IMG/VR virus record: IMGVR_UViG_3300013121_000012
Coordinates: 21,427-85,426 of that record
Source: a virus
Taxonomy: Duplodnaviria; Heunggongvirae; Uroviricota; Caudoviricetes
DNA: 64,000 nt
Strand: one strand, 5' to 3'
Positions 45,066 to 59,863 of the stretch are shown here, piece after piece. Position numbers and translations under genes: made by a program. Positions within the stretch are counted from its first letter, which is position 1; the number at the start of each line of letters is the position of its first letter. The notes under the pieces are model-generated. The model made no database searches. It worked only from the letters and a program-made list of their open reading frames with translations, and had not been told where the DNA came from.

Positions 45066-45367
45066 TCGTTAAAGCGAGAAGAATTGAATCGGAAGAATTC
45101 TTTTTTTACGACGGCACACAAGAATCTTTCGAGGAATTTCTTAAATGGGTTCCTCCAATGTACTACATCAATGGATGTCCGCAAAAAGGAAGTGTAGAAA
45201 GACGCAACGAAGGAAAAGGATCAGACAGAGAAATCTGGTGCTCAGGATGGAAACAATTCATTCGAATAAAACCTAATTTCTACGTTCATAAAAAATCATT
45301 TCCATCCGACTCGTGTATTTGGTCAGAAGAAAAATTCAAACAATATTACAAGAAGACACGAAAATGA
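45062..45367 (+). CDS. hypothetical protein
   Basis: ORF. Confidence 0.3.
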   Translation: MIVKARRIESEEFFFYDGTQESFEEFLKWVPPMYYINGCPQKGSVERRNEGKGSDREIWCSGWKQFIRIKPNFYVHKKSFPSDSCIWSEEKFKQYYKKTRK

Positions 45368-45579
45368 TCAAAGCAATCAGAAGATGGTGGATAAAAACTG
45401 GAATCGACGCCTGTTACAAAGAATACGAAAATCTGAATCATTTTTGGAAGTTCGAATGTTCTAATTTTTTTAGAGGGCCACAATCGGCAAAAAGAAATCG
45501 TGTGCGAGCTCATCAATGGCAACATAGAATAGATGAAAGACTCGATAAACTCGAAGCAAAATTGAAGGAACTAAAATGA
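45364..45579 (+). CDS. hypothetical small protein
   Basis: Start trimmed. Confidence 0.3.
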   Translation: MIKAIRRWWIKTGIDACYKEYENLNHFWKFECSNFFRGPQSAKRNRVRAHQWQHRIDERLDKLEAKLKELK

Positions 45580-46379
45580 ATAACAGCAAAGACAGTCTCG
45601 GCGATCGCATGAAGGGATATGAAAATATCTGGAAGACAAAACTTCCACGTCGCCTTCCAATGATCATGAGAGTGGATGGAAAAGCATTTCACACATACAC
45701 TCGCGACTGTGAAAAACCATTCGATAAAAGACTTGCTGATCTTATGGATGCAACAGCGAAGCATCTTTGTGAGAATATCCAGGGTGCTCAGATCGCATAC
45801 GTTCAAAGTGATGAGATAACAATTCTCGTTCATGACTACAAGACTCTTCAGAGTGATGCGTGGTTCGATAAAGAACTTCAGAAGATGTGTTCAATCTCTG
45901 CGGCATTAGCAAGTACGTTCTTTACTGTTAATAGCCACAAATTGTGGAAATATGATGATGCAGATCTACCGTCTGGAATGAACAGAATCAAAACTGCTCT
46001 CTTTGATTCTCGTTGCTTCATTGTACCAGAACATGACGTTGTCAACAACTTTATTTGGAGACAGCAAGACGCAGTACGTAACAGCATTCAAATGCTTGCT
46101 CGTTCTCTTTACTCACACAACGAATGCAACAATAAAAATCAGGCGGCTCTTCAGGAGATGATTCACCAGAAAGGCCAAAACTGGAATGATGTTCCTACTG
46201 GCTTCAAACGTGGTCGCTGCGTATACAAGAAACCATTTTATGTTGTCAGCGATGAACGCATGCACGATGAAGATGTTGTACGCAACAAGTGGATTATCGA
46301 TTCAGAAATTCCTACGTTTACTGTTGACAGAGATTTTATAGGAAAATGGTTAGCAGTTAATGAGGAAAAAAATGATTGA
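45576..46379 (+). CDS. Thg1-like protein (tRNA-His guanylyltransferase family, 3'-5' nucleotidyltransferase)
   Basis: N-terminus DRMKGYE...PMIMRVDGKAFHTYT parallels the Thg1 RIDGKKFHEFS core, and SDEITILV parallels the Thg1 SDEYSF block. Confidence 0.65.
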   Translation: MNNSKDSLGDRMKGYENIWKTKLPRRLPMIMRVDGKAFHTYTRDCEKPFDKRLADLMDATAKHLCENIQGAQIAYVQSDEITILVHDYKTLQSDAWFDKELQKMCSISAALASTFFTVNSHKLWKYDDADLPSGMNRIKTALFDSRCFIVPEHDVVNNFIWRQQDAVRNSIQMLARSLYSHNECNNKNQAALQEMIHQKGQNWNDVPTGFKRGRCVYKKPFYVVSDERMHDEDVVRNKWIIDSEIPTFTVDRDFIGKWLAVNEEKND

Positions 46380-46803
46380 AATAGATTTGAAAAGACTTCG
46401 TCAAAACGAAAAAATTAATTTTCGAATTGCTTATGAAATTAACGGAGATTGGATCCAAACAAAACCCGTTGAGGTATTTATTGAAACGATTCCGACTACG
46501 ATCATGATTATTGATCACATAGAAAAAGAAATAAAACCTATCAAAGGTGAAAGTCGTTTAAGCGACTATATATTTCGAAAATTACTTGAGCTCAAAAATG
46601 ATATGCGTCTTATTCTAAATGTAGATAAAGAAAACGGAGAAGTTCTCAATTCAGAAGAATTTATAGTAAGAAAAAATTCTCCTATAGCGTTTCCAAGAGA
46701 TTCATACGGAGTGCCATTTTTAAAAGAGGAAGGGAAACGATACGCAATTAATTTCGACATTATAGAAAGAGTTACTCGCGGATTAAGATATGGAATTGTG
46801 TGA
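46360..46803 (+). CDS. hypothetical protein
   Basis: ORF. Confidence 0.3.
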   Translation: MRKKMIEIDLKRLRQNEKINFRIAYEINGDWIQTKPVEVFIETIPTTIMIIDHIEKEIKPIKGESRLSDYIFRKLLELKNDMRLILNVDKENGEVLNSEEFIVRKNSPIAFPRDSYGVPFLKEEGKRYAINFDIIERVTRGLRYGIV

Positions 46804-47071
46804 ATTATGCCAACTAGAATCGAATAATTTAACTAAACATCATCTGATTCCACGAACACTGCACTCGAACAAGTGGTTTAAACAACGATACACTAAAGAA
46901 CAGTTGCATGAAGGAATTATGGTCGATCGTGATTGCCATAATGAAATACACAAGTTGCATGACAATAAGCATCTTGCAAAAGTGCTTAATACTCTGGATA
47001 AATTGCGATCAGATGAGAAGATAGCAAAATACGTTTCTTGGAAAAAGAAGAGATATAATAAACATGGGTGA
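46790..47071 (+). CDS. small HNH endonuclease
   Basis: CELCQ...HHLIP...H motifs. Confidence 0.5.
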   Translation: MELCELCQLESNNLTKHHLIPRTLHSNKWFKQRYTKEQLHEGIMVDRDCHNEIHKLHDNKHLAKVLNTLDKLRSDEKIAKYVSWKKKRYNKHG

Positions 47072-47216
47072 ATTACTTCATATTCTGGGTTTTTGCCCAG
47101 ACCGCTTCGCACATTTCAGTCTTACGACTCTTTTGTGTACAAACGAAATACTATTCACAATTTATTACTTGTGGCTTAAGTTCAGAACGTCCTTCTAGCC
47201 ACCAAAGGTGGTTAAA

Positions 47217-47879
47217 ATGAAACGTTACAAGTACCCAAAAACAATGCATTTTCCATGGTCGCCTGGTCTTCAGAACGACGACCGTATGCTTGAATCTGTC
47301 AATGTTTTTATAGGCAAAGAAGTCATCATTACTGAAAAGTTCGATGGCGAGAATACATCGATCTACGCAGATCATATTCATGCCAGGAGTTTAGACTCAC
47401 AGAATCATCCGAGCAGAAACTGGGTAAGAGCATTCGCTGCAAAATTTCAGCATCAGATACCAATTGATTGGAGAATCTGTGGAGAGAATATGTATGCGAT
47501 GCATTCTATTTTCTACAAATATCTGCCATCGTACTTTCTAGGATTCTCAATATGGGATGATAAGAATAACTGCTTACATTGGGATGAAACGATGAATTGG
47601 TTTCAAATGTTCGGAATAACACCCGTGAGACCGATCTATCGCGGAATCTTTGATGATAAACTAATTCAATCATTGATCATGGCAAATGGATCAGCGATTA
47701 TGGATGAAAACATGGAAGGATATGTTTGCAGAACGGTTGAAGGATTTCATTACGATGACTTCCAGAAATGCGTTGCGAAATATGTACGAAAAAACCATGT
47801 TCAGACAGATGAACATTGGATGAATAAGGAGATAGTTAAGAATGGCCTCGACACAAGATCAGAAATCAGCGGCAAGTGA
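47217..47879 (+). CDS. small RNA-ligase-family nucleotidyltransferase (PF09414-like)
   Basis: TEKFDGEN (motif I KxDG), EGYVCRT (motif IV) and VAKYVRKNH (motif V); RBS aaaggtgg. Confidence 0.5.
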   Translation: MKRYKYPKTMHFPWSPGLQNDDRMLESVNVFIGKEVIITEKFDGENTSIYADHIHARSLDSQNHPSRNWVRAFAAKFQHQIPIDWRICGENMYAMHSIFYKYLPSYFLGFSIWDDKNNCLHWDETMNWFQMFGITPVRPIYRGIFDDKLIQSLIMANGSAIMDENMEGYVCRTVEGFHYDDFQKCVAKYVRKNHVQTDEHWMNKEIVKNGLDTRSEISGK

Positions 47880-48354
47880 TTTATCTCTTGAAACAGAAGC
47901 AAAGAAGTTAGTTTGTCCTATATCGATTTATACTGGCAAACCTCAGACTTGTCTTGGAAGTTCTTGTGTAGGATGGAAAACGACTTCTTCTCAAGAAATC
48001 AAATCAGAAATAGCCGATGGGATATTTCTAGAAGGAATGGCGTATACAGAACTTATGACGGGAGAAAATGAATCTCATGCGTACGTAATAAGAAACGGAC
48101 TCATAATTCATGAGAAATGGAATGCTAAAAAAGATCCAACAGTTCTTAAGGTAATATCTCACGATGAAATAATGAATGAAAAATTCGGAATGAGAAAGTG
48201 GCTAGAGGTCGTACGAAAAAGAAGACCGATGGCGATTGAACATGACGGCTCGCGTAATATTCAATATAATACAGAAGAACAGAAATTTTACCACATATAT
48301 GATGAACCACTAGTACAACGAAAAGGATATTGTGCGGTGATTTACGATAAATAA
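47842..48354 (+). CDS. hypothetical protein
   Basis: ORF. Confidence 0.3.
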   Translation: MASTQDQKSAASDLSLETEAKKLVCPISIYTGKPQTCLGSSCVGWKTTSSQEIKSEIADGIFLEGMAYTELMTGENESHAYVIRNGLIIHEKWNAKKDPTVLKVISHDEIMNEKFGMRKWLEVVRKRRPMAIEHDGSRNIQYNTEEQKFYHIYDEPLVQRKGYCAVIYDK

Positions 48355-48366
48355 AAGGAGAAGACG

Positions 48367-48834
48367 ATGGCCAAAAAAGAACAAGCGCAACTCAAAAACT
48401 TAATTGATTTTGATTGGGAACAAATCAAAGAATTTGTAATGAATTCTTCTGATGAGTCGCTTGTCTATGTAGGATGTGACTCAAAAGATCATAAAACTCA
48501 TGTCGACTTCGTGACTGTTGTTTGTGTACACATCGACGGCCGTCATGGATCCAGAGTATTCATAGACAAGAAACGGATAAAGAAGAGAATGTATCTTCAC
48601 GACAGACTATGGCAAGAAGTTGTTCTTACTAAAGATGCAGCAGAAAAAGTCAGAGGATTTGTCGGAAAGAAATACCTCGAAACTCACGTTGACTTGAATC
48701 CAAACCGCAAGTACAAGAGCAATACAATCCTTAAAGATGCGCTTGCTTATCTTGTTGCTTTCGGCTTCAACGTCAAAGAAAAACCAGAAGCTCATAGCGC
48801 AAGTTATGCAGCAGACCACTATTTGAGAATATGA
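48367..48834 (+). CDS. hypothetical protein
   Basis: RBS aaggaga. Confidence 0.35.
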   Translation: MAKKEQAQLKNLIDFDWEQIKEFVMNSSDESLVYVGCDSKDHKTHVDFVTVVCVHIDGRHGSRVFIDKKRIKKRMYLHDRLWQEVVLTKDAAEKVRGFVGKKYLETHVDLNPNRKYKSNTILKDALAYLVAFGFNVKEKPEAHSASYAADHYLRI

Positions 48835-49253
48835 AAATGAAATGTGGAGTTTGCAGATACCCCGATGAAATACGAGTCGAGTATTTTCAGACTCCACAAT
48901 ATTTTCCTTATAATCCTCGTCCAGTTGAGATAACAGATGAGGCAATTGCTATACATAGAGCATTAGAAAAACATTATAACATAAGACCAAATATTCCCGA
49001 AGATTATGGTATGCCAAATGAAAACTACGAACAATTCAATTCACCAGAAGAGCATCTAAAATCAATCAAAGAGAGATGGCCAAAATACGAAGAATTACTG
49101 AAATTGAAGAAATCAGATTTTAACGACTTAGAACGATATTTAGCTACGGCGGCTCACAGAGAATGGGCTGAAAGACAAGATCGCTTAGCAGTTAATTTAG
49201 CAATCGATATATTCAGAAAATATGAAGAGGAAGCATTTGACCCAGCAATATAA
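48831..49253 (+). CDS. hypothetical protein
   Basis: ORF. Confidence 0.3.
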   Translation: MKMKCGVCRYPDEIRVEYFQTPQYFPYNPRPVEITDEAIAIHRALEKHYNIRPNIPEDYGMPNENYEQFNSPEEHLKSIKERWPKYEELLKLKKSDFNDLERYLATAAHREWAERQDRLAVNLAIDIFRKYEEEAFDPAI

Positions 49254-49290
49254 ACTATTTTTGTGTCTTCTAAGGAATATAATATGGTAG

Positions 49291-49992
49291 ATGCAAGAAG
49301 TATATGTGTATGCTTATCTTGATCCAAGAAAGAAATGCGCGCTAGAATATTCGAATGTTTGTTTCTTATATGAACCGTTTTATATAGGTCAAGGAATCGG
49401 CAATCGATACAAAAATCATCTGAATATAATTAATCACCACGAATGTAAAAGATCTAAACTCGAGTGGAAATTTAATCCAGAAAAATGCAAAATTCTTACC
49501 GATATTTACATAGAAACAAAATCTTATCCATTCATAGAAAAGATTGCAATATTAAAATCAAGAGATGAGGCGAATTTAGAAGAAGAAAAATATATAAATC
49601 TAATTAAAAGGAAAACTGACGGCGGATATTTGACAAACATACTTAAGAATCACCAAGTTGATAATTCCGTCAAAAAAGGAAAAACCCTAGAGGAATTGTA
49701 TGGAAAAGAAAAATCTGATGAAATAAAGAGAAAACTTTCTGTTAGCTCAAAAGCAATGTTATCTTCTCCTGAAATGAAAGAAAAAATTAAGGCTCTTCGT
49801 ACAGGAAAAACAAACCCAAAAGCTAGAAAAATATCTCAGTTTAATTTAGATGGGACATTTATAAAGGAATTTGAATACATAAATCAAGCTGTAAAAGAAT
49901 TGAATTTGATTCCTGCAGCAAAAAACGCAATCATAGGAGTGGCGAGAGGAAGAAGACATAAAGCGTACGGATTCATTTGGAAGTACTCATAA
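49291..49992 (+). CDS. GIY-YIG homing endonuclease
   Basis: VYVYAYLDP...YEPFYIGQGIGNRYKNH: a GIY-YIG N-terminal domain. Confidence 0.6.
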   Translation: MQEVYVYAYLDPRKKCALEYSNVCFLYEPFYIGQGIGNRYKNHLNIINHHECKRSKLEWKFNPEKCKILTDIYIETKSYPFIEKIAILKSRDEANLEEEKYINLIKRKTDGGYLTNILKNHQVDNSVKKGKTLEELYGKEKSDEIKRKLSVSSKAMLSSPEMKEKIKALRTGKTNPKARKISQFNLDGTFIKEFEYINQAVKELNLIPAAKNAIIGVARGRRHKAYGFIWKYS

Positions 49993-50199: not shown

Positions 50200-50514
50200 G
50201 AAAATTTTTATGCGAAATTTCGGTTTGTTGTAATATAATAGTAATATCGGAAGCGAGAAAAGAGCTACTTCGAATCAACTACAAACAGCTTTAAAAAGAA
50301 AACAATCTCTTTTCAATTTTTCTCCGAGATAATGCACGTCAGAAGACTGACAGCAAGGTAAGTGAGTTACTTCGGCCCTTAGTGGGCAATTTTTATTTGA
50401 AAAAAAATCCGGTTGGTGCGAATCCAGCAAAGATGGCGAAAGCCAGGGAGCAATCCCGCCTCACTCCAATTTCCTTCAGTCGAGTGCACCGTTCTCATAA
50501 TAAAGAAAAATTAA
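50200..50514 (+). ncRNA. candidate structured ncRNA upstream of the Ro60 gene (possible second Y-like RNA)
   Basis: A noncoding stretch with a -10-like element at ~50228 that ends at the intrinsic terminator at 50515. It contains GNRA-type hairpins (ggcgaaagcc) and a T-arm-like hairpin ttgg-TGCGAAT-ccag. Confidence 0.3.
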
Positions 50515-50540
50515 GGCTCCCAATGAGGAGCCTTTTTTAT
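50515..50540 (+). terminator. intrinsic terminator
   Basis: ggctcc-caatga-ggagcc + TTTTTTA. Confidence 0.65.
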
Positions 50541-50555: not shown

Positions 50556-52037
50556 ATGTCAAAGTTTAACAAGAAAACAAAAACAACAATCAAGCCAAAG
50601 GTCGTCGCCAATAAAGGCGGTGGTGTAGGCTTTGCGCAGAGTAAGGAAATGGAACTCGCTTCTATTTTGCTTACATCGTTCCTATCAGGGAACACACATG
50701 AATCAGAGTCAGCGCAAGAACAAAGAATCTCGAATCTCCTTGATTCGTTTGGCGATTCAAACTTCCCAGCGAAAGCTGCGGTGTTTGCTCGTAACGAATT
50801 CGGTATGCGTTCAGTTTCACACTTGATCGCGTCTGAAATCGGTGAAAGAGTTAAGGGAGCAGAATGGACAAAACGATTCTTTGAAAAGGTTGTTCGCCGT
50901 CCAGACGACATTACTGAAATTCTTTCACGCACACTCGCAGAACAAGGAACAGTTCCTAATGCGATGAAGAAAGGACTTGCAGCTTCTTTCTCTAAGTTCG
51001 ATGAGTACCAACTCGCGAAGTATAGAGGAGAAGGAAAAGCAGTTTCTTTGATTGACGCTGTCAATCTTCTTCACCCAACTCCAACAGCGAAAAACAAAAT
51101 CGCTCTCAAGAAATTGATTGCCGATAAGCTTCGTTCAAAGGAAACATGGGAATCAAAGATTTCTGAAACAGGAAAATCTGAGAATGTCGAAGAAGCTAAG
51201 ACGGAAGCTTGGGCAGATTTAATCACTTCCGAAAGAATTGGTTATCTCGCTCTTGTACGAAACCTCCGTAACATTCTCACAAGTGTTACTGATGTAGGCG
51301 TTATTGAAAAGGCTTGCGATATCCTTAAGGATAAGAACAAGTGCAAGAACAGTCTTATCTTCCCTTTCACTTTCTGGTCAGCGTACTTTGAAGTTGAAAG
51401 TATGTCACTCTCAAGTGTTACAAAGAAGCTTGTCATGAGCGCTTTGAACAAAGCACTTGAAATGTCATGTGACAACATCCCAGTATTCGAAGGACGAACA
51501 CTCGTTGCTATCGATTATTCTGGATCAATGGGTGGAACTGACATCTGCAACAAATTGAGCAATCGAGGCGTTGCATCATTGTTCGCTACTGTTCTCGCTA
51601 AGAAGAACCCAACATCTGACATCGTTATCTTCGGAGACGATTGCAAGTATGTTAAGAACTTCAACGCAGACGACAGCATCTTCACAAACCTAAAAAACTT
51701 GATGAAGAATAACCAATATGCGGGAGACAATACTGTTCATGTTGGTCACAGTACAAATTTCTATTCAATCTTCAATGCCGCAAAGCATAAGTATGATCGA
51801 ATCGTAATTTTCTCTGATATGCAAGCGAACTCTGGATATGGTTGGTCTGGACTAGAAGCATACAACAAGAAGTTTGACGTAAAGCCACTCATTATTGCTG
51901 TTGATCTTCAAGGCAACGGAACAACTCAGTTCAAGAAAGACTTCGTTCAAGTAGTCGGATGGTCTGAAAAGATTTTCGATCTTATGAAGAACGATGCTCA
52001 GACACTTGTCAACAGAATCAAAGCCATCGAGCTTTAA
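50556..52037 (+). CDS. rsr: Ro60 (TROVE domain + C-terminal vWA/MIDAS) ortholog, Rsr-like
   Basis: RBS ttaggagtgacaATG. The C-terminal vWA has LVAIDYSGSMGG (MIDAS DxSxS). An N-terminal ~350-aa helical region is typical of TROVE proteins. The length (493 aa) matches bacterial Rsr. Start trimmed from the track ORF. Confidence 0.65.
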   Translation: MSKFNKKTKTTIKPKVVANKGGGVGFAQSKEMELASILLTSFLSGNTHESESAQEQRISNLLDSFGDSNFPAKAAVFARNEFGMRSVSHLIASEIGERVKGAEWTKRFFEKVVRRPDDITEILSRTLAEQGTVPNAMKKGLAASFSKFDEYQLAKYRGEGKAVSLIDAVNLLHPTPTAKNKIALKKLIADKLRSKETWESKISETGKSENVEEAKTEAWADLITSERIGYLALVRNLRNILTSVTDVGVIEKACDILKDKNKCKNSLIFPFTFWSAYFEVESMSLSSVTKKLVMSALNKALEMSCDNIPVFEGRTLVAIDYSGSMGGTDICNKLSNRGVASLFATVLAKKNPTSDIVIFGDDCKYVKNFNADDSIFTNLKNLMKNNQYAGDNTVHVGHSTNFYSIFNAAKHKYDRIVIFSDMQANSGYGWSGLEAYNKKFDVKPLIIAVDLQGNGTTQFKKDFVQVVGWSEKIFDLMKNDAQTLVNRIKAIEL

Positions 52038-52064
52038 AAAAGACTGAAAAGTCCGCTATTAAAA

Positions 52065-52090
52065 GCGTCCCTCCGTGGACGCTTTTTTTA
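52065..52090 (+). terminator. intrinsic terminator
   Basis: gcgtcc-ctccgt-ggacgc + TTTTTTTA. Confidence 0.65.
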
Positions 52091-52093
52091 TGC

Positions 52094-52122
52094 TCATGCG
52101 CCATTTACAAGTTTTCACTTAA
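52094..52122 (+). promoter_or_regulatory. sigma70-like promoter CGCCATTTACAA-N17-TATAAT driving the downstream ncRNA
   Basis: Near-identical to the promoter at 28210. Confidence 0.55.
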
Positions 52123-52129
52123 GTGTTAT

Positions 52130-52370
52130 AATAAAGCACTTCCGGAAAAGAGGGCGCCCCTCTGGAACGGAAGGAGAAACTGCGGGGTAGCCCAATATGG
52201 TAGAGGCATCGGCGTGAAAGCCGAAACAGTGTTGGTTCGATTCCAATCCTCATGGCTTTCGAAGGTTTTGCGGGAACAACGCCCGCAGTTTCCTAACAAA
52301 AAACTGGACGGATGCGAAGTGAATTTCATGCATGGTTTACAGATTAAACCAGCTGACTTTTTACCAATTT
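52130..52370 (+). ncRNA. Y RNA-like ncRNA (YrlA-like), core helix 52176..52292
   Basis: gaaactgcgggg...cccgcagtttc forms a ≥11-bp terminal helix that encloses a D-arm-like gtagcccaatatggtagagg and a T-arm gttgg-TTCGATT-ccaat. It is followed by a hairpin ggttta-caga-ttaaacc and a T-rich tract. Confidence 0.5.
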
Positions 52371-52619
52371 TTCAATGCCAGTAAAAATGGTGACTTTTAT
52401 CTCGACCTCTGTTGGAATAGTAAACCGCCGGTCGTGAGGGTTTTAGCAGTATTTGTCGCAATGAACACAAAATCTGCCATATATTCTCGGATTTCGAGTC
52501 TAATGTAAGTAGGCGACCGTAATAACGCATCGCTCCTTTTAGATAAGATTCCGGATCTTGGATTTCGAACTGATCATTTGAGATTGTTTCAAATTCGAGA
52601 ATATTTTGCAATCATACCA

Positions 52620-52648
52620 TTTACAAGAAAACGAATAAAGATTATAAT
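52620..52648 (+). promoter_or_regulatory. sigma70-like promoter CCATTTACAA-N17-TATAAT
   Basis: Upstream of the 52659 ORF, followed by RBS aaggag. Confidence 0.5.
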
Positions 52649-52658
52649 AAGGAGCAAA

Positions 52659-52883
52659 ATGGAAACAAAGTTCAAAGTCGGACAAAAAGTCTTCGTGATG
52701 ATCGACAACAAGATCGCTGTCGACACAGTCAAAACTGCGAACATCGCTCCAGGCACAGACGTTGGAATTTATCGCTTAAAAAGCACGAAATCCAATTCTC
52801 AGAAATACTATTTTGATGGAGATCTTTTTCAGAATGAGCAATTGCTCGTTGACATGCTTCTCATGAATATCAAGGAGAGATAA
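52659..52883 (+). CDS. hypothetical small protein
   Basis: Start trimmed to the ATG after the RBS. Confidence 0.35.
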   Translation: METKFKVGQKVFVMIDNKIAVDTVKTANIAPGTDVGIYRLKSTKSNSQKYYFDGDLFQNEQLLVDMLLMNIKER

Positions 52884-53224: not shown

Positions 53225-53445
53225 TAGAAGTAGTTTACATCGGCGATAAATTCTATGGAGATTCTGGGACGATGATGTCTTCAATCTACAAAAAAGAAGG
53301 AAAAAAATACACTCGATTTGATTGGGGGTTTTTGCAAATCGCACTAGCAAATGGCGAAAATGTGAAAATCCGTCAAGCTAATCGTAAAGAAATGCTTCAT
53401 TTCAAAACGATGCTCGCTGATCATATACTGAAAAAACAAAAATAG
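53221..53445 (+). CDS. hypothetical protein
   Basis: ORF. Confidence 0.3.
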   Translation: MIEVVYIGDKFYGDSGTMMSSIYKKEGKKYTRFDWGFLQIALANGENVKIRQANRKEMLHFKTMLADHILKKQK

Positions 53446-53514
53446 GTTCCATATATAGTGGCAATTGTTTCCGCTGTCTACGGAAACACCGGGGTTCGAT
53501 TCCCCGTGGAACCG
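53445..53514 (+). tRNA. tRNA-Asp (GUC), short
   Basis: Acceptor ggttcca/tggaacc, anticodon arm ttccg-cuGUCua-cggaa, T-arm cgggg-TTCGATT-ccccg. Confidence 0.5.
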
Positions 53515-53536
53515 CACTAAAAATCTGGAGGGATAT

Positions 53537-54211
53537 ATGAAAACATTCACTTTCGAAAGTCAAATGAAAGTTATTGGCGAAATGAATCCCTTTACGGATG
53601 AGCAGATAAAAAATGAGCCGATGCTTTTTAATTGCGATTTGAAAGCAGCATACGATCTCGGTGGACCAATCACTCAGGAATTCCTCGATAAAGTCATGGA
53701 CTTTGTTGATGATGAAAAAGTCGTGATTGATACTCGAGTACACATGCTCATGAAGGGTTGGTTCCCGTGCATTCCTGGATTTCATCATGACGATGTTCCA
53801 AGAAGTGGTCGCGATGGACAACCTAACTACTTCAATCCAGAATACAAAAGCAAACACGTAATGGCACTCGTAAATGCCGATGTCTGTCCAACAGAATTTG
53901 CAATAGGTACCACGATTCTTCCCGATATTGAGGAAGGAATCTACTATAAAGAGTGGCATCCAATGATTGAAAAACGACTTGAAGAAAAAAGCAAAATCAA
54001 TCATTTACTCTTAATGGAAAGAGTGCGTGCCAAGGGGAATCCAATCATTTATTTTGATTGGCAAACATTCCATCAAGGAACTAGAGCCGTAAAAAATGGC
54101 TGGCGATGGTTTGCTAGACTGAGCTATAATACAGATCGTGTGAAAAATTGCACGAACGAATTACGAAGACAAGTTCAAGTGTATCTTGAGCACCCAATGG
54201 AAGGATGGTAA
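53537..54211 (+). CDS. hypothetical protein
   Basis: RBS ggaggg; start trimmed. Confidence 0.35.
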   Translation: MKTFTFESQMKVIGEMNPFTDEQIKNEPMLFNCDLKAAYDLGGPITQEFLDKVMDFVDDEKVVIDTRVHMLMKGWFPCIPGFHHDDVPRSGRDGQPNYFNPEYKSKHVMALVNADVCPTEFAIGTTILPDIEEGIYYKEWHPMIEKRLEEKSKINHLLLMERVRAKGNPIIYFDWQTFHQGTRAVKNGWRWFARLSYNTDRVKNCTNELRRQVQVYLEHPMEGW

Positions 54212-54493
54212 ATGATAGCATTCGCGATAAAACCTGAAAATCAAGAACAAGTAAATGATTTCGTATACTCTATGAAAAGAGAGTTCGAAAACAAAGAAAG
54301 AGATATGGTAGGCGTAATCGCTATACCCGGTTTTAGTCGATGGTATATTGAAATCGATATCGATAAAAACGAAAGGAATTTCGAGAGAATAGCGAATGTC
54401 ATGAATTCGTTTAATGGATTCGGTAATTCTCTGCGAGGTTGGAAAGTTTACGAAGATAACGACAAAATTCTTCCGTATTGTGAGGCGCAATGA
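54212..54493 (+). CDS. hypothetical protein
   Basis: ORF. Confidence 0.3.
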   Translation: MIAFAIKPENQEQVNDFVYSMKREFENKERDMVGVIAIPGFSRWYIEIDIDKNERNFERIANVMNSFNGFGNSLRGWKVYEDNDKILPYCEAQ

Positions 54494-55602
54494 AAATAGT
54501 ACTTAAAAAGAAATCATCGACGGGAGCACCATTAATCTGGACTGCAACTGTCAAAGGAAATACCGTGACTTACACTCACGGGCAAGAAGGTGGAAAACTG
54601 CAGACGAAAGTCGATGTCCACAAAACTGGGAAGAACATCGGGAAGAAGAATGAGAAAACTCCAGAAGATGTTGCACTCTTTGAAGCTGAAACTACAGCTC
54701 TGAAGAAAATCGACAACGGGTACAAACTCGTTGAAGGTAAGATCAATGAACATACAACTAAAGCTGAAAAAGCAATGCACGTTCCTCAACCAATGCTTGC
54801 TCACAAGTATGTTGATCACAAACACAAACTCGGTAATAAGTTTTATGTACAAAAGAAGTACGATGGAATCCGAGGAATCTTCGACACGAATACAGGAAAA
54901 GGTTACTCACGAAATGGTAAACAAATCCTCGGTGTTCCACATATCGAAGAATCAATACGCTCTCTTAAAATAAAGGATGCATGGATCGACGGTGAATTGT
55001 ATTCACACGATCTGTCATTCGAACAAATTATTTCAATCACCAAGAAGACTAAAACTCTTGCTGATGAAAAGGACCGCAAGAAAATCATACTTGTGGTATT
55101 CGATGCAGTTGTTCCTGGCAACACAATGCAACGTCATGAGTGGGTCAAGAAACACATCGGCAAGACGAAATATCTCGAAATTTCTGAGATGCATGAGTGC
55201 ACTCACGACAAGCTCGAGAAGATGCATGATAAATTCGTCCAAGAAGGTTACGAAGGAATCATGGTCAGGAATGTTGATGGAAAGTATGAGCACAAACGCT
55301 CATACGGGCTCCTCAAATTCAAGAAGTTCTTTGATAAAGAATTCAAGATCTTTGGCTTTCATAAGCAAGATCATCAAGATACTCTTGGAGCGATGGAGTT
55401 TGTCGATCACAAAGGCGACCACTTTAGCGCTGGCTTGAAGATGAGTCACGAAATGCGTCAAGAAATCTGGGACAATAAAGAAGCTTACCGCGGCAAAATG
55501 GCGACTGTCCGCTATCAAGAGATTACTCAGCCGAATAAAGCAGGAATTCCTGTTGGTGTCCCACGATTCGGTGTAGTTGTTGCCATAAGGGATTACGAAT
55601 GA
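54490..55602 (+). CDS. ATP-dependent DNA ligase
   Basis: QKKYDGIRG (motif I KxDGxR), EGIMVRN (motif IV) and LLKFKKF (motif V). Confidence 0.7.
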   Translation: MKIVLKKKSSTGAPLIWTATVKGNTVTYTHGQEGGKLQTKVDVHKTGKNIGKKNEKTPEDVALFEAETTALKKIDNGYKLVEGKINEHTTKAEKAMHVPQPMLAHKYVDHKHKLGNKFYVQKKYDGIRGIFDTNTGKGYSRNGKQILGVPHIEESIRSLKIKDAWIDGELYSHDLSFEQIISITKKTKTLADEKDRKKIILVVFDAVVPGNTMQRHEWVKKHIGKTKYLEISEMHECTHDKLEKMHDKFVQEGYEGIMVRNVDGKYEHKRSYGLLKFKKFFDKEFKIFGFHKQDHQDTLGAMEFVDHKGDHFSAGLKMSHEMRQEIWDNKEAYRGKMATVRYQEITQPNKAGIPVGVPRFGVVVAIRDYE

Positions 55603-55808
55603 TAAAAGAAATAATCGCTGCAATCTTACTGATCGCAGCAATAATCGGAGCGTATGTTTTCGTAGATGTATCTCAAAGAAAATCTGCGGAAAGGTATGAA
55701 GCAATTTATGGCGAATAAAATCGTCATAACGATAATCACTGCTCTCATCGTAGTATACTTCACTATGTATGGTGGCTGCTACATAGCAATGTTCAAAGGA
55801 ATGAGATT

Positions 55809-56144
55809 ATGAAAAATGCAGGATTACGAGAAGATTCGATTATTCGAGTTCTGAACGCAGAAGGAGAATTCATACGCCGAGGAACATACAATTGGGCTGA
55901 TAAAAACCCAACTGTAGAAAGCAACCATAATCTTCGTGGATTGAAACCAAATATCACTCAGAGATTCGGAGACTTTACCGATTACGAAGGCAAAATTACT
56001 CTTCGAGACAAAGATCATGCAAAAAGATTCGAGGAGTTTCTCAATGAAACAATTATTGAGTACGAACTCAAAGAAATCAATCGCATGACAATGAGGCAAT
56101 ATTTAGAACGGATGGGAAAACTTACTCGTCCTGGAGATGAATAA
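55809..56144 (+). CDS. hypothetical protein
   Basis: ORF. Confidence 0.3.
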   Translation: MKNAGLREDSIIRVLNAEGEFIRRGTYNWADKNPTVESNHNLRGLKPNITQRFGDFTDYEGKITLRDKDHAKRFEEFLNETIIEYELKEINRMTMRQYLERMGKLTRPGDE

Positions 56145-56155
56145 AGAGGGGAAAC

Positions 56156-56497
56156 ATGGAACAAACATTCGCAAATCAAGGCGTGACATTACTCGCGCAC
56201 AAACAAACGGATAAGTTCGTACGATTCGTCGTAGCTGATACTGAAGCTGGTCGGACAAAAACAGTGCGTGCAGTACGCAACGCTGGATACGATGTCGACA
56301 CTCTCAAGAAAGACGTACAAGTCTTTACGAAGTGGGACAAGTTTGAGAATGTTCGTGTGTTTACATTCTCCGCCGAGAAACTTTTCTGTGATACACACAA
56401 AGCTGCATCAAAGCAAGCAGGAATCTCAGGATCTGTTCCAATGCATTTGTCACTCCAAGAACTTGCGAAGATGCAAGCGTCTGGTGTACGGGTATGA
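56156..56497 (+). CDS. hypothetical protein
   Basis: RBS gagggg. Confidence 0.3.
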   Translation: MEQTFANQGVTLLAHKQTDKFVRFVVADTEAGRTKTVRAVRNAGYDVDTLKKDVQVFTKWDKFENVRVFTFSAEKLFCDTHKAASKQAGISGSVPMHLSLQELAKMQASGVRV

Positions 56498-57117
56498 CAA
56501 AAGCACAAAGAGAATTCGATCTCATTTGGCAAGTCCGATACTTGCTACTCGGTAAATTCGCTGAGCTATTTCGGCTCCGCGATGAAGCACTAGAGATTAG
56601 CCCGATGATTGATTATTCGGTCATCGCCGACAAACTTAACGAGTACATGAAAAATCGTGTACAAGAGCTCAAAGACATCGTCAAAAAACACGAGCTCATG
56701 AAGTACTATGATATTTCTCCGTACGTGATCCCGACATTCAACTATCTCAATCGAAAGATCGAGAGAAAGGAATTCAACTTCATAAATGATCCGAAGATCA
56801 AAGGTCGTTTGATTCATGTTGGTGGAAGTCACGCTTGTCTCTATGACGAATATTACTGCAAAGACTGTGAGACGTTCGTCGTAACACGAGATGATACTGA
56901 CGATTGCATGATTCTTCCAGTGTGTCCAACATGTAACAATATCCAAAACTACATTTGGAAAACAGTACGAGACGACGGAACAATGGCATATATCCACTAC
57001 CGAAACAGAACTCTTAAGTGGTATCGTATGCACAAGCGTGATTTGAAAATCCAAAAGTTCTTGGGTCGCTTTACGCCGAAGAAGATAACTGAGCGAATCA
57101 GTTATTGGGGCGCATAA
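56494..57117 (+). CDS. hypothetical protein with CxxC...CxxC zinc motif
   Basis: CKDCETF...CPTCNN. Confidence 0.3.
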   Translation: MTKAQREFDLIWQVRYLLLGKFAELFRLRDEALEISPMIDYSVIADKLNEYMKNRVQELKDIVKKHELMKYYDISPYVIPTFNYLNRKIERKEFNFINDPKIKGRLIHVGGSHACLYDEYYCKDCETFVVTRDDTDDCMILPVCPTCNNIQNYIWKTVRDDGTMAYIHYRNRTLKWYRMHKRDLKIQKFLGRFTPKKITERISYWGA

Positions 57118-57214
57118 ATAAAACCGTCTTGAGTTGATTCTACATACAATAGAATATAGCAACTCCAAATGTCCTTATAAATAAAGGAAAATTAAAAACA
57201 ATTACGGAGACAAA

Positions 57215-57409
57215 ATGGCACAACCACAAACAATCACATTGAAGCAAGGTCAGATCAACAAGATCGTTAAACTCGCATCAGGGACATCGAAGAAAGCAGG
57301 TCTTTCAGCTCGAACAATCTCTGAAGAAACAGGTTTCCCTCGCCGTCAAGTAATGGCAGTTCTCGAAGACAACAACCTCGCTTCGTACTCAGCCGGTTCT
57401 TACAACTAA
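57215..57409 (+). CDS. hypothetical small protein
   Basis: RBS acggaga. Confidence 0.3.
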   Translation: MAQPQTITLKQGQINKIVKLASGTSKKAGLSARTISEETGFPRRQVMAVLEDNNLASYSAGSYN

Positions 57410-57494
57410 GTAAGACACCCACTCTCCCCGTGTAATCAGGAGAATGGACCGGCGAAGATAATCGCGGATAGCCGGTTCCAATGCAATACTACTA

Positions 57495-57620
57495 TGAAAA
57501 TAAAAAATGCAATTCTTAAAGCGACTCAGATAACAATCGCAATTGCTTTCTTTATATATGTTATCGTCGTCGTTATGACACTCGGTTTTATGGCCGCAAG
57601 TCTCGGAGGACTCAAGTGAG
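57495..57620 (+). CDS. small membrane peptide (41 aa)
   Basis: ORF below the track threshold; a single TM segment. Confidence 0.25.
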
Positions 57621-57870
57621 TAAAGATCTTGTTGAATACAACGTCCTCGCAAAAGGATTCATCGACAAACTCGAAGAGCTTCAAAAAGAAAAAGATCTTG
57701 AAACTCTTAAGAAAAAGATTATCGCAATACTTCAAAGCGAAGAATACTCTGGTGCGAATGGCACTCGAAAGAAGTGGATAGAAAAGGTTGGTGCAATGAG
57801 CACAATGCGAGATGTCCAGTTCTTTCTTTACAATTTCATTCTCGCAGCAAATGGAATGAAAGCGACATGA
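57616..57870 (+). CDS. hypothetical protein
   Basis: ORF. Confidence 0.3.
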   Translation: MSKDLVEYNVLAKGFIDKLEELQKEKDLETLKKKIIAILQSEEYSGANGTRKKWIEKVGAMSTMRDVQFFLYNFILAANGMKAT

Positions 57871-58418
57871 ATCATTTTCAGCTCAGATTAAAATTCGGAG
57901 AAGAAGCAGAAAATCTGTTTGAAGAAGTACTGAAACTTCAGATTCTTCCGAATAAAGGATATGAGCGCTTTACATTTCAAAGTCTCCGTGATAAACACGG
58001 ATGGAATTCAGTAGAATGTCAGAAATTCACAAAGGTGAATGGAGACTTTAAAGTCATCGGTCAAGATGACGAAGAGTTGTTCTTTGACGTCAAAGGTACA
58101 GAGAAACTTTCTCTTGATTCTCTTGAATTCGCAAGAGAAGATCTTATATTCGCGATGAACTTTCATTTGAGAAGAGAACACTGTTTCTTCTTCAGAAAAA
58201 GTGATGTCGCTAACAAAATCAAGAATGTCTGTAAGAAAGTCAAACTTCCAAGTGGAGACGATGGATTTTCAATATGGGCGGCACAAGATTTTCCTCAAGA
58301 AAGGCTATACACTGAACTGCCAAGAAAGATTCTATCGCTGAAGAAAAAACTTCGCAAGAAAGCTGCTGAAGAATTTTCAGATAAATTTTTCGGGAATGTT
58401 CTAACTCCAGAAATATAA
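57867..58418 (+). CDS. hypothetical protein
   Basis: Start trimmed. Confidence 0.3.
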   Translation: MNHFQLRLKFGEEAENLFEEVLKLQILPNKGYERFTFQSLRDKHGWNSVECQKFTKVNGDFKVIGQDDEELFFDVKGTEKLSLDSLEFAREDLIFAMNFHLRREHCFFFRKSDVANKIKNVCKKVKLPSGDDGFSIWAAQDFPQERLYTELPRKILSLKKKLRKKAAEEFSDKFFGNVLTPEI

Positions 58419-58743
58419 TAGCAACATGGAGCAGATGATTAATACTTTCAGTTTTAATTATTGTGCAGCTCGTCATTCGCAGACGGGTAAACCTGAGATT
58501 CGCTAATCTCAAAGGGTTTCCATACTTCATCCCAAAGCACTCTTTAAAAAATATGGACCAGAGCCCCTAGAGAGGGAAGCTCTCGAGTCAGAGAACTCGT
58601 TCGGTATCGTTTCAAGTCATACGGGAAACCTTATTACTTGGGGCGAAGGCGCGAAAGAGAAGGATCTTTGAGGAGATCAGAAGTAAAACGAGGCGTCGCA
58701 ACACGCCTATCTGAGTCGAAACTTTGACAACGTTACTTTACTT

Positions 58744-58814
58744 AGGCGATTAGTTCAATGGTAGAACGGCAGACCGATAATCTGCTAACGTGGGTTCGAT
58801 TCCCTCATTGCCTA
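58744..58814 (+). tRNA. tRNA, probable Ile (GAU)
   Basis: D-arm gttc/gaac, anticodon arm gcaga-ccGAUaa-tctgc, T-loop TTCGATT with an imperfect stem. Confidence 0.4.
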
Positions 58815-58870
58815 CATAAGTGGATCATGATTATTTTGCGCAAAGATAGTCAGATCCACAAATATACATT

Positions 58871-59407
58871 ATGAAAGAAATCATAATGGAAGATTCTTAT
58901 GGGAAAAAAAGAGCCCATGTAGAAGTTAACTGCAAAAATTGTGATAAGCAATTTTTTAGAGTTAAAAGAAAAGTGATTGAAAAAAACTTCTGTTGTAGAT
59001 TGTGTTCGGAAGAACACAAAAAGAATTCAGATATTTTTGAAACGCAGTGCGCTTTCTGTAAAAGTTCAATCAAAAGAAAGAACAGCAGAAAAAGAAATAG
59101 TAAGTCTGGTCTGTATTTTTGCTCTAGAGACTGTAAAGATAACGCACAACGTTATCATAACTCTCTAAGAATAAAAGAATTCGAATCTATAATGCCAAAC
59201 CATTATGGAACAGGAGAATATAGATACAGAAAGAAAGCGTTCGATAACGCAAAGGTTATCAAGTGTAATTTTTGTGATTACTCGAATGAGAAAATTCTTC
59301 AAGTTCATCACATCGATGAGGACAGAGAAAATAATGAATTGTCAAATTTAATGATCGTTTGTCCAACTCATCATTGCGAAATACACTATGGAGAATTAAA
59401 AATTTAG
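58871..59407 (+). CDS. HNH homing endonuclease
   Basis: Cys-rich N-terminus; C-terminal ILQVHHIDEDRENNELSNLMIVCPTHHCEIH. Confidence 0.65.
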   Translation: MKEIIMEDSYGKKRAHVEVNCKNCDKQFFRVKRKVIEKNFCCRLCSEEHKKNSDIFETQCAFCKSSIKRKNSRKRNSKSGLYFCSRDCKDNAQRYHNSLRIKEFESIMPNHYGTGEYRYRKKAFDNAKVIKCNFCDYSNEKILQVHHIDEDRENNELSNLMIVCPTHHCEIHYGELKI

Positions 59408-59575
59408 GGCCTTGGGACTGCTGGAGGTGGTCGTCTCGCTTGCACCGAGAATAACAGGTCGGTTTGAACCCGACAAGGTCCACATGAACAAACAACAACC
59501 GCAAACCCTCCGGTAGTAGATGCATCGAATAGATGGAATGCTTTCGATGATAAACTCTGTTGTTTGTTCACTTAT

Positions 59576-59647: not shown

Positions 59648-59666
59648 CAGTATAATAAGGAGAAAA

Positions 59667-59858: not shown

Positions 59859-59863
59859 TAAAT

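What the first reader, a model, noticed from the sequence alone, without database searches (positions are those of the whole stretch)
52130..52370. Y RNA-like ncRNA with tRNA-mimic module immediately downstream of the Ro60 gene
A consensus promoter (52094-52122) follows the rsr terminator. The transcribed region contains a perfect ≥11-bp inverted repeat (gaaactgcgggg / cccgcagtttc, 52176-52187 versus 52282-52292). This helix encloses a D-arm-like sequence (gtagcccaatatggtagagg), a GNRA-type hairpin (ggcgtgaaagcc) and a canonical T-arm (gttgg-TTCGATT-ccaat). A long terminal helix plus a D/T-arm tRNA mimic is exactly the architecture described for bacterial YrlA-type Y RNAs, which bind Ro60 by the stem. 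There is no acceptor-stem partner for a true tRNA.
Basis: seen in the sequence. Interest (0 to 1): 0.85.

Follow-up and report, generated by a model that had tools for sequence, protein, structure and literature searches.

The report
Anticodon-less tRNA mimic beside phage Ro60

Summary
The sequence features are real. A strong sigma-70 promoter (52104-52132) follows the Ro60 terminator. It drives a 5' hairpin (52139-52173) and then a tRNA-like cloverleaf (52176-52260).

Seven distinct related metagenomic versions keep the promoter, the 5' hairpin and the cloverleaf. Compensatory changes support the cloverleaf, including an extended 9-12 bp acceptor stem. The anticodon-like loop is only 4-6 nt in every version, so the RNA cannot decode.

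The YrlA interpretation fails on topology. YrlA is a permuted tRNA with arm order T, closed acceptor hairpin, D, and its anticodon stem opens into the Ro60-binding stem. This RNA has the normal order D, anticodon arm, T, with an open acceptor stem.

The 11-bp inverted repeat is exact, but most relatives lack it.

A covariance model built only from bacterial Ro60-linked RNAs finds nothing in the finding. It hits 50247-50337 (E about 5e-6) and, weakly, 50347-50489. Both sites lie upstream of Ro60.

The element is best read as a non-decoding tRNA mimic within a Ro60 and tRNA-repair gene island. Whether it binds Ro60 is untested.

The parts
52061..52092 (+). Intrinsic terminator of the Ro60 gene (stem-loop plus T run)
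   Evidence: Conserved with compensatory changes in the homologues (alignment A1).
52104..52132 (+). Sigma-70-type promoter: TTTACA, 17 nt, TGnTATAAT. It is preceded by the conserved GCGCCA. The inferred transcription start is about 52138.
   Evidence: 11 of 12 matches, TG extension. Invariant in 6 of 6 loci. The promoter class occurs 5 times in the window against 0.02 expected by chance.
52139..52173 (+). 5'-terminal hairpin: CUUCCG[GAAA]AGAGGG-CGC-CCCUCU[GGAA]CGGAAG
   Evidence: (I1). A hairpin sits at the same position with a different sequence in L002, L003, L010 and L013. Other transcripts from the same promoter class also start with a hairpin.
52176..52187 (+). 5' strand of the extended acceptor-like stem (GAAAC + UGCGGGG). 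It is also the 5' arm of the 11-bp long-range inverted repeat.
52188..52247 (+). tRNA-like core. U8-A9 lie at 52188-52189, the D arm at 52190-52207 and G18-G19 at 52199-52200. The anticodon-like arm spans 52209-52224 (5 bp plus a 6-nt loop, GUGAAA). The T arm spans 52231-52247 (loop UUCGAUU).
   Evidence: The invariant positions are U8, A9, G10, A14, G18, G19, the G53-T54-Psi55-C56 positions, A58 and C61.
52248..52263 (+). 3' strand of the acceptor (CCUCAUG) plus its extension G(C)UUUC, running into the conserved UUCGAA/CGAA motif (52260-52263)
   Evidence: UUCG follows the helix in all homologues.
52269..52292 (+). Local 3' hairpin UGCGGG-AACAACG-CCCGCA (52269-52287). It overlaps the 3' arm of the long-range repeat (52282-52292), so the two pairings exclude each other.
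   Evidence: The homologues carry different 3' hairpins.
50246..50329 (+). Context: upstream Y RNA module 'Ya', a short YrlB-like hairpin carrying the clade's stem consensus and CUACUUCGAA
   Evidence: R2 scores it 35.2 bits, E 5e-6. It is nearly invariant in 6 loci.
50333..50497 (+). Context: upstream Y RNA module 'Yb'. It has the same stem consensus (CAGCAAG..GUUACUUCG / AAUUUCCUU) around a D-like hairpin, an AU hairpin, a T arm and two GNRA hairpins. A terminator follows at 50513-50538.
   Evidence: 69 pairs, 5 with compensatory changes. (second-best R2 hit, 10.6 bits, E 0.13)..
50556..52037 (+). Context: Ro60 gene (TROVE + Ro60 vWA domains)

Best explanation
What it is (shown; confidence about 0.9): a small RNA gene with its own strong promoter, conserved in one clade of tRNA-rich, probably huge, phages. 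The transcript starts with a 5'-terminal hairpin and then folds into a tRNA-shaped cloverleaf.
- Every nucleotide that builds the tRNA elbow is kept.
- The acceptor-like stem is open and lengthened to 9-12 bp, because the 5' leader pairs with the 3' trailer.
- The anticodon arm is closed by a loop of only 4-6 nt, so the RNA cannot read a codon.
- No CCA end is encoded.

How it most likely works (inferred; about 0.4): it is a stable tRNA mimic. It presents the acceptor, T and D 'top half' and elbow of a tRNA to proteins that recognise tRNAs, and it has no normal 7-nt anticodon loop for an anticodon nuclease to recognise. It would act as a decoy or adaptor within the phage's island of tRNA-directed genes: two RNA ligases, a Thg1-like tRNA 5'-end repair enzyme, Ro60 with two Y RNAs, and tRNA and tmRNA genes.

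It is not a YrlA-type Y RNA. Direct binding to Ro60 is possible but is the second choice (see rivals).
For: - Promoter, 5' hairpin and cloverleaf are conserved in window, L002, L003/L004, L005, L006, L008 and L013, and in L010 (partial, cut off at the contig end). Ro60 identity runs 72-95% for the loci reached through their Ro60 protein; L013 came from the promoter pattern scan.
- Cloverleaf with extended acceptor: 85% of cells are paired against 29-51% for slid controls. 12 of 25 pairs change on both sides, and 0 of 500 shuffles reach the covariation score.
- G-U pairs in the stems place the RNA on the + strand.
- The elbow nucleotides are invariant.
- Homologues score 36-49 bits on Rfam tRNA. 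ARAGORN gives them inconsistent identities (Pro, 'Pyl'-CUA, Ser, ???), because the loops are 4-6 nt.
- Neighbouring genes are RNA ligases, Thg1-like and RNaseH-like, with CYTH and HD genes in relatives.
- The RNA cassette is mosaic relative to Ro60. L002 Ro60 is 95% identical to the window's but carries the L006/L010-type module, and L003 has two tandem modules. This fits a fast-evolving decoy better than a co-evolving Ro60 ligand. The upstream Y RNAs are almost invariant.
Against: - There is no expression, processing or binding data.
- In the window itself the thermodynamic optimum is the 11-bp long-range helix, not the cloverleaf: -62.9 against -51.5 kcal/mol, long-range pair probability 0.999. 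The window's D stem and acceptor are weaker than in the homologues (Rfam 27.5 bits, below the gathering score).
- The alignment used for covariation was fitted to the model, and only 7 distinct sequences exist.
- A paired leader and trailer is a poor substrate for normal tRNA end processing. This is from general knowledge and was not tested.
- No terminator was found after the element, so it may be only one part of a longer transcript.
- The decoy role is inferred from gene context alone.
Confidence: 0.5

Rival explanations
1. It is a third Ro60-bound RNA, a Y RNA of unusual 'inverse' topology. Ro60 would bind the extended acceptor helix together with the CGAA-containing 3' strand, or in this window the 11-bp terminal helix. 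The tRNA-like body would act as the effector or tether module, as proposed for D. radiodurans Yrn1.
For: - It lies directly after Ro60 on the same strand in all loci.
- Yrn1 is described as having the D-to-T orientation and a 5-bp 'anticodon' stem with a 6-nt loop, as seen here.
- A CGAA/UUCGA motif abuts the helix in every homologue. CGAA is the motif used to identify the Ro60-binding Yrl RNAs of Thermus phage phiLo.
- Ro60 also binds helices that carry 3' single-stranded tails.
- Y stems are lineage-specific: R2 also misses the validated phiLo Yrls. A negative R2 result is therefore not decisive.
Against: - There is no match to the Y stem model. The best hit is 6 bits, E 1.7, and it falls on the local hairpin.
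- The same phage already has two modules with that consensus upstream.
- All 65 Y-stem units found in the bacterial relatives (41 of the 80 loci) lie upstream of Ro60.
- The motif sits on the 3' side, whereas in known Y RNAs it is on the 5' strand.
- The 5' end is locked in its own hairpin and does not pair with the 3' end.
- The RNA is mosaic and variable, while Ya and Yb are nearly invariant.
- The whole neighbourhood is syntenic, so adjacency alone is weak evidence.
Confidence: 0.28
2. It is a tRNA-like processing signal ('punctuation'). RNase P and 3' tRNA-processing nucleases would cut at the cloverleaf to release or define the ends of the flanking RNAs, namely the 5' hairpin RNA and the conserved structured block at 52481-52604. 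The tRNA-like 3' ends of some long non-coding RNAs work this way.
For: - No terminator lies between the promoter and the next promoter at 52620.
- A second conserved structured RNA lies downstream on the same strand.
- The conservation pattern, with acceptor, T arm and elbow strict and the anticodon loop free, is what RNase P and RNase Z recognition needs (established knowledge).
- M. smegmatis YrlA is cut by RNase P.
- Module number varies between loci (L003 has two) without loss of the flanking elements.
Against: - Pairing of leader and trailer, which extends the acceptor to 9-12 bp, is conserved. It would tend to hinder tRNA end processing rather than help it.
- A processing signal does not need a dedicated strong promoter directly upstream.
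- Nothing shows that the flanking RNAs need defined ends.
Confidence: 0.15
3. It is a decaying tRNA pseudogene with no function of its own, left over in a genome rich in tRNA genes.
For: - The window copy scores below the Rfam tRNA threshold and has mismatches in the acceptor and D stems.
- ARAGORN cannot assign an anticodon.
- Odd '???' tRNA calls also occur in tRNA arrays next to bacterial Ro60 genes.
Against: - The promoter is invariant, and compensatory changes occur in all four stems.
- All elbow nucleotides are invariant.
- The same non-tRNA features, a short loop, an extended acceptor and UUCGA after the helix, recur in lineages whose sequences have otherwise diverged widely.
Confidence: 0.07

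Closest known systems
YrlA (Y RNA-like A) of bacteria and mycobacteriophages (Chen et al. 2014, PMC4201824; Wang et al. 2018, bioRxiv 10.1101/312249)
   Same: - Encoded within 4 kb of Ro60 on the same strand.
- Keeps the D- and T-arm nucleotides that form the tRNA elbow.
- Lacks a functional anticodon loop and an encoded CCA end.
- Also occurs in phages.
   Different: - YrlA is circularly permuted: T arm, closed acceptor hairpin, D arm. Its anticodon stem opens into the Ro60-binding stem made by the 5' and 3' ends.
- Here the order is D, closed anticodon arm, T, the acceptor is open and extended, and the 5' end sits in a separate hairpin.
- The clade's Y stem consensus is absent.
- It lies downstream of Ro60. 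All 65 Y units found in the relatives lie upstream.
Deinococcus radiodurans Yrn1
   Same: As described in PMC4201824, Yrn1 has the D-to-T orientation relative to the 5' end. The stem-loop between the arms occupies the anticodon position, with 5 bp and a 6-nt loop, exactly as in the window copy.
   Different: - Yrn1's helix of 5' and 3' ends carries a Ro60-binding site conserved on both strands, and its D arm is incomplete.
- Here the D arm is complete and no Ro60 site could be recognised.
- I did not have the Yrn1 sequence for a direct comparison.
Canonical tRNA (Rfam RF00005)
   Same: Cloverleaf, U8, A14, G18-G19, the T loop UUCGAUU, a 5-bp T stem and a 5-nt variable loop. Homologues score 36-49 bits.
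   Different: - The anticodon loop is 4-6 nt and no consistent anticodon exists.
- The acceptor is lengthened by leader-trailer pairing.
- UUCGAA follows where a discriminator and CCA would be.
- It has its own promoter and a 5' hairpin.
- The window copy falls below the gathering score (27.5 against 29).
The phage's own upstream RNAs Ya and Yb, and Yrl1/Yrl2 of Thermus phage phiLo (PMC12135203)
   Same: All are small structured RNAs flanking a phage Ro60 gene. Yb also contains a T arm and a D-to-T ordered tRNA-like core. A CGAA-type motif lies next to a helix.
   Different: Ya and Yb carry the stem consensus shared with bacterial Ro60-linked RNAs (R2 hits), lie upstream, and are almost invariant. 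The finding's RNA has none of these properties.
tRNA-like processing elements such as the tRNA-like 3' ends of long non-coding RNAs, and the stable tRNA-like RNAs of phage T4 tRNA clusters (recalled from memory, not checked here)
   Same: These are non-decoding tRNA-shaped RNAs recognised by tRNA-processing enzymes. The T4 examples lie among phage tRNA genes.
   Different: No processing data exist for this RNA. The paired leader and trailer and the link to a Ro60 locus are not features of those examples.

Membership tests
YrlA-type Y RNA | Encoded within about 4 kb of Ro60 on the same strand | tested here: met
   The element starts about 100 nt after the Ro60 stop codon, on the + strand.
YrlA-type Y RNA | Circularly permuted tRNA-like domain: T arm, then a closed acceptor-like hairpin, then the D arm | tested here: not met
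   The order is D (52190-52207), closed anticodon-like arm (52209-52224), T (52231-52247), and the acceptor is open.
YrlA-type Y RNA | Long stem formed by the 5' and 3' ends that carries the Ro60-binding motif. The motif is GNCGAAN0-1G near the 5' end. In this Ro60 clade the consensus is G(C/U)AG(U/C)GAG..(U/C)UACUUCG / UUUUCUC. | tested here: not met
   - Covariance model R2 of that stem gives only 6 bits (E 1.7) in 52130-52370. It gives 35.2 bits at 50247-50337.
- The 5' end forms its own hairpin.
- The 11-bp terminal helix is absent in L003, L005, L006, L008 and L013.
YrlA-type Y RNA | Conserved nucleotides for tRNA tertiary structure (elbow) | tested here: met
   U8, A14, G18, G19, the G53-T54-Psi55-C56 positions, A58 and C61 are invariant in 7 distinct sequences.
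YrlA-type Y RNA | Bound and stabilised by Ro60/Rsr | not testable with these tools
   This needs RIP or gel-shift assays with the phage Ro60.
Yrn1-type Y RNA (D. radiodurans) | D-to-T orientation with a 5-bp stem and 6-nt loop in the anticodon position | tested here: met
   UCGGC-GUGAAA-GCCGA lies at 52209-52224.
Yrn1-type Y RNA (D. radiodurans) | Ro60-binding helix conserved on both strands, made by the RNA's 5' and 3' ends | not tested
   No Yrn1 sequence or model was available. Structurally, the 5' end here does not pair with the 3' end.
Canonical decoding tRNA | Cloverleaf scoring above the Rfam tRNA gathering threshold | tested here: inconclusive
   The window copy scores 27.5 bits against a gathering score of 29. 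Homologues score 35.8-49.1 bits.
Canonical decoding tRNA | 7-nt anticodon loop with U33 and an anticodon that is consistent between orthologues | tested here: not met
   The loops are 4-6 nt: GUGAAA, GUGAA, GUGGA, CGAG, UACC and CCUAA. ARAGORN gives ???, Pro, 'Pyl', Ser, ??? and ???.
Canonical decoding tRNA | 7-bp acceptor stem with unpaired flanks and a discriminator/CCA 3' end | tested here: not met
   The acceptor is extended to 9-12 bp by leader-trailer pairing, with covariation in the extension. UUCGA follows the helix and no CCA is encoded.

The most novel reading that the evidence does not exclude
The RNA is a new class of phage effector RNA: an anticodon-less tRNA with an 'inverse YrlA' topology, meaning an open, extended acceptor stem and a closed anticodon stem. 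It would act in one of two ways. It could be a new type of Ro60 ligand, bound through the extended acceptor helix and the CGAA-bearing 3' tail. Or it could be an abundant decoy that soaks up host tRNA-targeting defence proteins while the neighbouring ligases and Thg1-like enzyme repair real tRNAs. In the window's lineage, the mutually exclusive pairings (acceptor plus 3' hairpin, or the 11-bp long-range helix) could make it a conformational switch.
Probability: 0.25. Interest if true: 0.7.

Novelty: new variant of a known kind. Interest (0 to 1): 0.5.

Why it matters
Ro60 and its Y RNAs are an old puzzle. Their best-understood role, tethering Ro60 to PNPase, comes from one bacterium, and the purpose of the tRNA-like module is unknown.

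This phage locus packs several related elements into a few kilobases:
- two Y RNAs with the stem consensus shared by many bacterial Ro60 loci;
- Ro60 itself;
- a separately promoted tRNA mimic without an anticodon;
- another structured RNA;
- RNA ligases and a Thg1-like tRNA repair enzyme nearby.

The locus therefore offers a compact system to test whether Ro60 RNPs work on tRNAs. It would also show whether phages deploy non-decoding tRNA look-alikes as decoys or adaptors.

There is a practical lesson too. tRNA finders annotate such mimics as tRNA-Pro, tRNA-Ser or 'tRNA-Pyl'. That can create false suppressor-tRNA or recoding calls in huge-phage genomes.

Tried and rejected
- Rfam at gathering thresholds on the whole window, and at E<=10 on 52000-52700, found only the sub-threshold tRNA match and terminator-driven noise. 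I tried to obtain a positive control for a YrlA model in Rfam on phage Ro60 loci and found none. Rfam's silence on Y RNAs is therefore uninformative.
- Nucleotide search of the phage collection found no match.
- Scans of viral contigs with the Ro60 protein, the RNA core and the promoter pattern all found nothing.
- The closest phage record, LR745206 (Ro60 42.7% identical), has no comparable RNA downstream. It does have an R2 hit upstream of its Ro60.
- Covariance model R1 of the tRNA-like module does not separate the family cleanly from real tRNAs. The family scores 61-91 bits and real tRNAs up to 56 bits. It could not be used to find distant members.
- nhmmer searches with the upstream RNA and with block 2 found nothing convincing outside the phage clade.
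- R2 does not detect the experimentally validated Yrl1/Yrl2 of Thermus phage phiLo. No experimental anchor was obtained.
- The supplementary alignments of Chen et al. 2014 are not held, and two reviews are not held.
- The idea that the shared 'GAAAAGAG' in the 5' hairpin and in Ya marks a common Ro60 site was dropped. In Ya that sequence is the variable helix strand. Hairpins at the 5' end also follow the same promoter class at unrelated places.
- The small ORFs overlapping the element were rejected as genes. The region is mosaic with indels, and no gene is called there in any related contig.
- PHROGs and Pfam gave nothing for the three small genes downstream.

Full report
**1. Setting**

The window looks like part of a large, tRNA-rich phage genome. 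It carries 22 tRNA genes and a tmRNA. It has no nucleotide match among 50,697 phage records. The ORF ending at 52037 is a Ro60 homologue with TROVE and Ro60 vWA domains. Relatives of 493-502 aa fix its start at the ATG at 50556. The nearest Ro60 in a phage record is 42.7% identical, in the 635-kb uncultured phage LR745206.

**2. The observation**

- The Ro60 terminator is at 52061-52086.
- The 11-nt inverted repeat at 52176-52186 / 52282-52292 is perfect.
- The T arm is canonical.
- The 'GNRA hairpin' is really a 5-bp stem with the 6-nt loop GUGAAA.
- ARAGORN calls 52181-52256 a tRNA with a 2-nt anticodon. Rfam tRNA aligns 52181-52255 at 27.5 bits, just below the gathering score of 29.
- Both tools pair UGCGGGG (52181-52187) with CCUCAUG (52248-52254). 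The statement that no acceptor partner exists is therefore wrong.

**3. Relatives**

Five Ro60 proteins of 72-95% identity led to contigs from metagenomes. A scan for the invariant promoter pattern added more. All have a gene-free gap of about 600 nt after Ro60. In every case the gap holds the terminator, the same promoter, a hairpin beginning 2-3 nt after the inferred start, and a tRNA-like module.

The modules differ widely in sequence, and L003/L004 carry two in tandem. Single-sequence folding gives clean cloverleaves in L003, L006 and L013. Their acceptor stems reach 9-11 bp because the leader pairs with the trailer.

I aligned seven distinct sequences to a covariance model. 85% of pair cells are standard pairs, against 29-51% when partners are slid by 1-3 columns. 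12 of 25 pairs show changes on both sides, including pairs in the acceptor extension. No shuffle out of 500 reaches the covariation score. The alignment was fitted to the model, which favours the structure. The slid controls and the independent single-sequence folds point the same way.

U8, A9, G10, A14, G18, G19, the G53-T54-Psi55-C56 positions, A58 and C61 are invariant. Frequent G-U pairs place the RNA on the + strand.

**4. Not a decoding tRNA**

The loop of the anticodon-like arm is 4-6 nt in every version: GUGAAA, GUGAA, GUGGA, CGAG, UACC and CCUAA. ARAGORN accordingly assigns Pro, 'Pyl'(CUA), Ser or '???' to orthologous positions. UUCG(A) follows the acceptor 3' strand instead of a discriminator and CCA. 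The homologues nevertheless pass the Rfam tRNA threshold at 36-49 bits, so automatic annotation would call them tRNAs.

**5. The long helix**

In the window, thermodynamics strongly prefers the 11-bp long-range helix: -62.9 against -51.5 kcal/mol for the cloverleaf plus local 3' hairpin. The 3' arm can instead pair locally with UGCGGG (52269-52274), so two exclusive conformers exist.

The long-range helix is not conserved. L008 has the same 5' strand but a different 3' hairpin. L003, L005, L006 and L013 lack the helix, and only L002 has an analogous pairing. I treat it as lineage-specific and not as the family's defining stem.

**6. Test against YrlA**

Chen et al. 2014 and Wang et al. 2018 define YrlA as a circularly permuted tRNA. 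Its order is a 5' Ro60-binding motif, then a variable arm, T arm, closed acceptor hairpin and D arm. Its anticodon stem continues into the Ro60-binding stem made by the 5' and 3' ends.

The present RNA is the inverse: open acceptor, closed anticodon arm, order D to T. That orientation, with a 5-bp stem and 6-nt loop, is how the same paper describes D. radiodurans Yrn1. I could not compare sequences with Yrn1.

**7. Where the Y RNAs are**

The gap upstream of Ro60 (about 50246-50540) is more conserved than the gene itself. It folds into a consensus structure of 69 pairs and ends in a terminator just before the Ro60 ribosome-binding site.

Eighty loci from bacterial genomes with Ro60 39-44% identical carry small RNAs with a common stem: G(C/U)AG(U/C)GAG, a variable helix strand, (U/C)UACUUCG, a module, the complementary helix strand, then UUUUCUC. 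A strict pattern finds 65 such units in 41 loci, all upstream of Ro60.
- 29 are short hairpins (YrlB-like).
- 17 carry only a T arm.
- 18 have T before D (YrlA-like).
- 1 has D before T.

I built covariance model R2 from 26 short bacterial units only. It hits window 50247-50337 at 35.2 bits (E 5e-6), plus the same site in every related phage contig and in LR745206. With filters off over the whole Ro60 locus, the second-best hit is 50347-50489 (10.6 bits, E 0.13). That hit aligns the same stem around an 85-nt insertion that contains a T arm. The finding's interval gives only a 6-bit hit on its local hairpin.

The phage's homologues of known Ro60-linked RNAs are therefore upstream. One caveat applies. 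R2 also misses the experimentally validated Yrl1/Yrl2 of Thermus phage phiLo, whose Ro60 is only about 27% identical. The stem is lineage-specific, and the negative result does not exclude Ro60 binding by other means.

**8. Context**

Upstream genes include two RNA ligases (43621-44679 and 47208-47879), a Thg1-like tRNA 5'-end repair enzyme (45576-46379) and an RNaseH-like protein. Relatives add CYTH and HD-domain genes. About 50 of the 80 bacterial loci have same-strand tRNA arrays directly before their Y RNAs and Ro60, 413 tRNAs in all. Ro60 in this clade is thus embedded in tRNA-centred neighbourhoods.

**9. Interpretation**

Shown: a conserved, separately promoted, non-decoding tRNA mimic with an extended open acceptor stem.

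Inferred: it acts through its tRNA shape. I favour a decoy or adaptor role in the tRNA-repair and Ro60 island (about 0.4).
- The cassette is mosaic and fast-evolving relative to Ro60, whereas Ya and Yb are nearly invariant.
- It lacks a normal 7-nt anticodon loop, the part that anticodon nucleases attack.

The rivals are Ro60 binding as an unusual Y RNA (about 0.28), a role as a processing signal for a longer transcript that also contains the structured block at 52481-52604 (about 0.15), and a pseudogene (about 0.07).

**10. Verdict**

The YrlA assignment is not. The element is a new variant within the known theme of tRNA-like RNAs at Ro60 loci. Its interest is moderate. The locus as a whole, with two upstream Y RNAs, Ro60, the tRNA mimic and a further structured RNA, deserves experimental attention more than the single element does.

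Noticed in passing
window 50246-50540: Two tandem Y RNA modules, Ya (about 50246-50329) and Yb (about 50333-50497), followed by a terminator (50513-50538), lie directly upstream of the Ro60 start codon. They are nearly invariant across 6 phage loci. They share a stem consensus with small RNAs upstream of bacterial Ro60 genes. No Rfam family matches them.
   Followed up: yes
window 52345-52625 (stem 52481-52498 / 52587-52604): A second conserved non-coding block lies downstream of the finding. It has a 17-bp long-range stem with compensatory changes in 7 loci, enclosing a variable hairpin and a GAUC..GAUC hairpin. The motif (G/T)TGACTTTT is repeated just upstream (52352-52361 and 52389-52398). 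No Rfam match was found and the function is unknown.
   Followed up: partly
window 43621-49992 and 54490-55602: An RNA-repair-like gene island holds two RNA ligases (43621-44679 and 47208-47879), a Thg1-like tRNA-His guanylyltransferase family protein (45576-46379), an RNaseH-like protein (48367-48834) and a GIY-YIG endonuclease (49291-49992). An ATP-dependent DNA ligase lies downstream (54490-55602).
   Followed up: partly
L024-L103 (80 bacterial genome loci): About 50 of the 80 loci with the closest bacterial Ro60 genes carry large same-strand tRNA arrays immediately upstream of the Y RNAs and Ro60. These loci are mostly from Saprospiraceae, other Bacteroidota and Verrucomicrobiota genomes assembled from metagenomes. 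ARAGORN tRNAs in all, and the last one before Ro60 is often tRNA-Gln. Some of these contigs may be phage or mobile-element DNA binned into the genomes.
   Followed up: partly
L022 3457-3880 (crAss-like phage csAssE-Sib, OR575929.1): Three tandem hits of the Y stem model lie just upstream of the annotated Ro sixty-related gene. Two of them enclose the genes annotated as tRNA-Tyr and tRNA-Lys. Those 'tRNAs' may be the tRNA-like modules of Y RNAs.
   Followed up: no
L003 4065-4226 and L004 (JGI contigs Ga0208826_1008239 and Ga0116193_1021727): These relatives carry two tandem tRNA-like modules after the promoter. ARAGORN calls the second one 'tRNA-Pyl (cta)', an apparent amber suppressor. This is probably an artefact of a 5-nt loop read as a 7-nt loop.
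   Followed up: partly
window 21471, 28207, 38606, 52101, 52617; L011/L018, L012/L017, L015: The promoter class CCATTTACAA-N15-TTATAAT occurs 5 times in the window against 0.02 expected by chance. The copy at 28207 and the copies in L011/L018 are followed by long structured leaders or possible non-coding RNAs of 70-170 nt that begin with a hairpin.
   Followed up: no
window 35341-35745; 33168-35035; 53445-63972: A phage-encoded tmRNA (106 bits; tag peptide AEKKEGKLLVGNFGATPVSRGVVAALAA) and 22 tRNA genes lie in two clusters. A tRNA-Asp(GTC) 1.1-1.5 kb downstream of the finding is syntenic in all related contigs that extend far enough downstream.
   Followed up: no
L001 2492-2569 (LR745206.1, 635-kb uncultured phage): The best hit of the Y stem model (37.7 bits) lies about 430 nt upstream of this huge phage's Ro60. 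This suggests a YrlB-like RNA there too. The record has no annotation.
   Followed up: no
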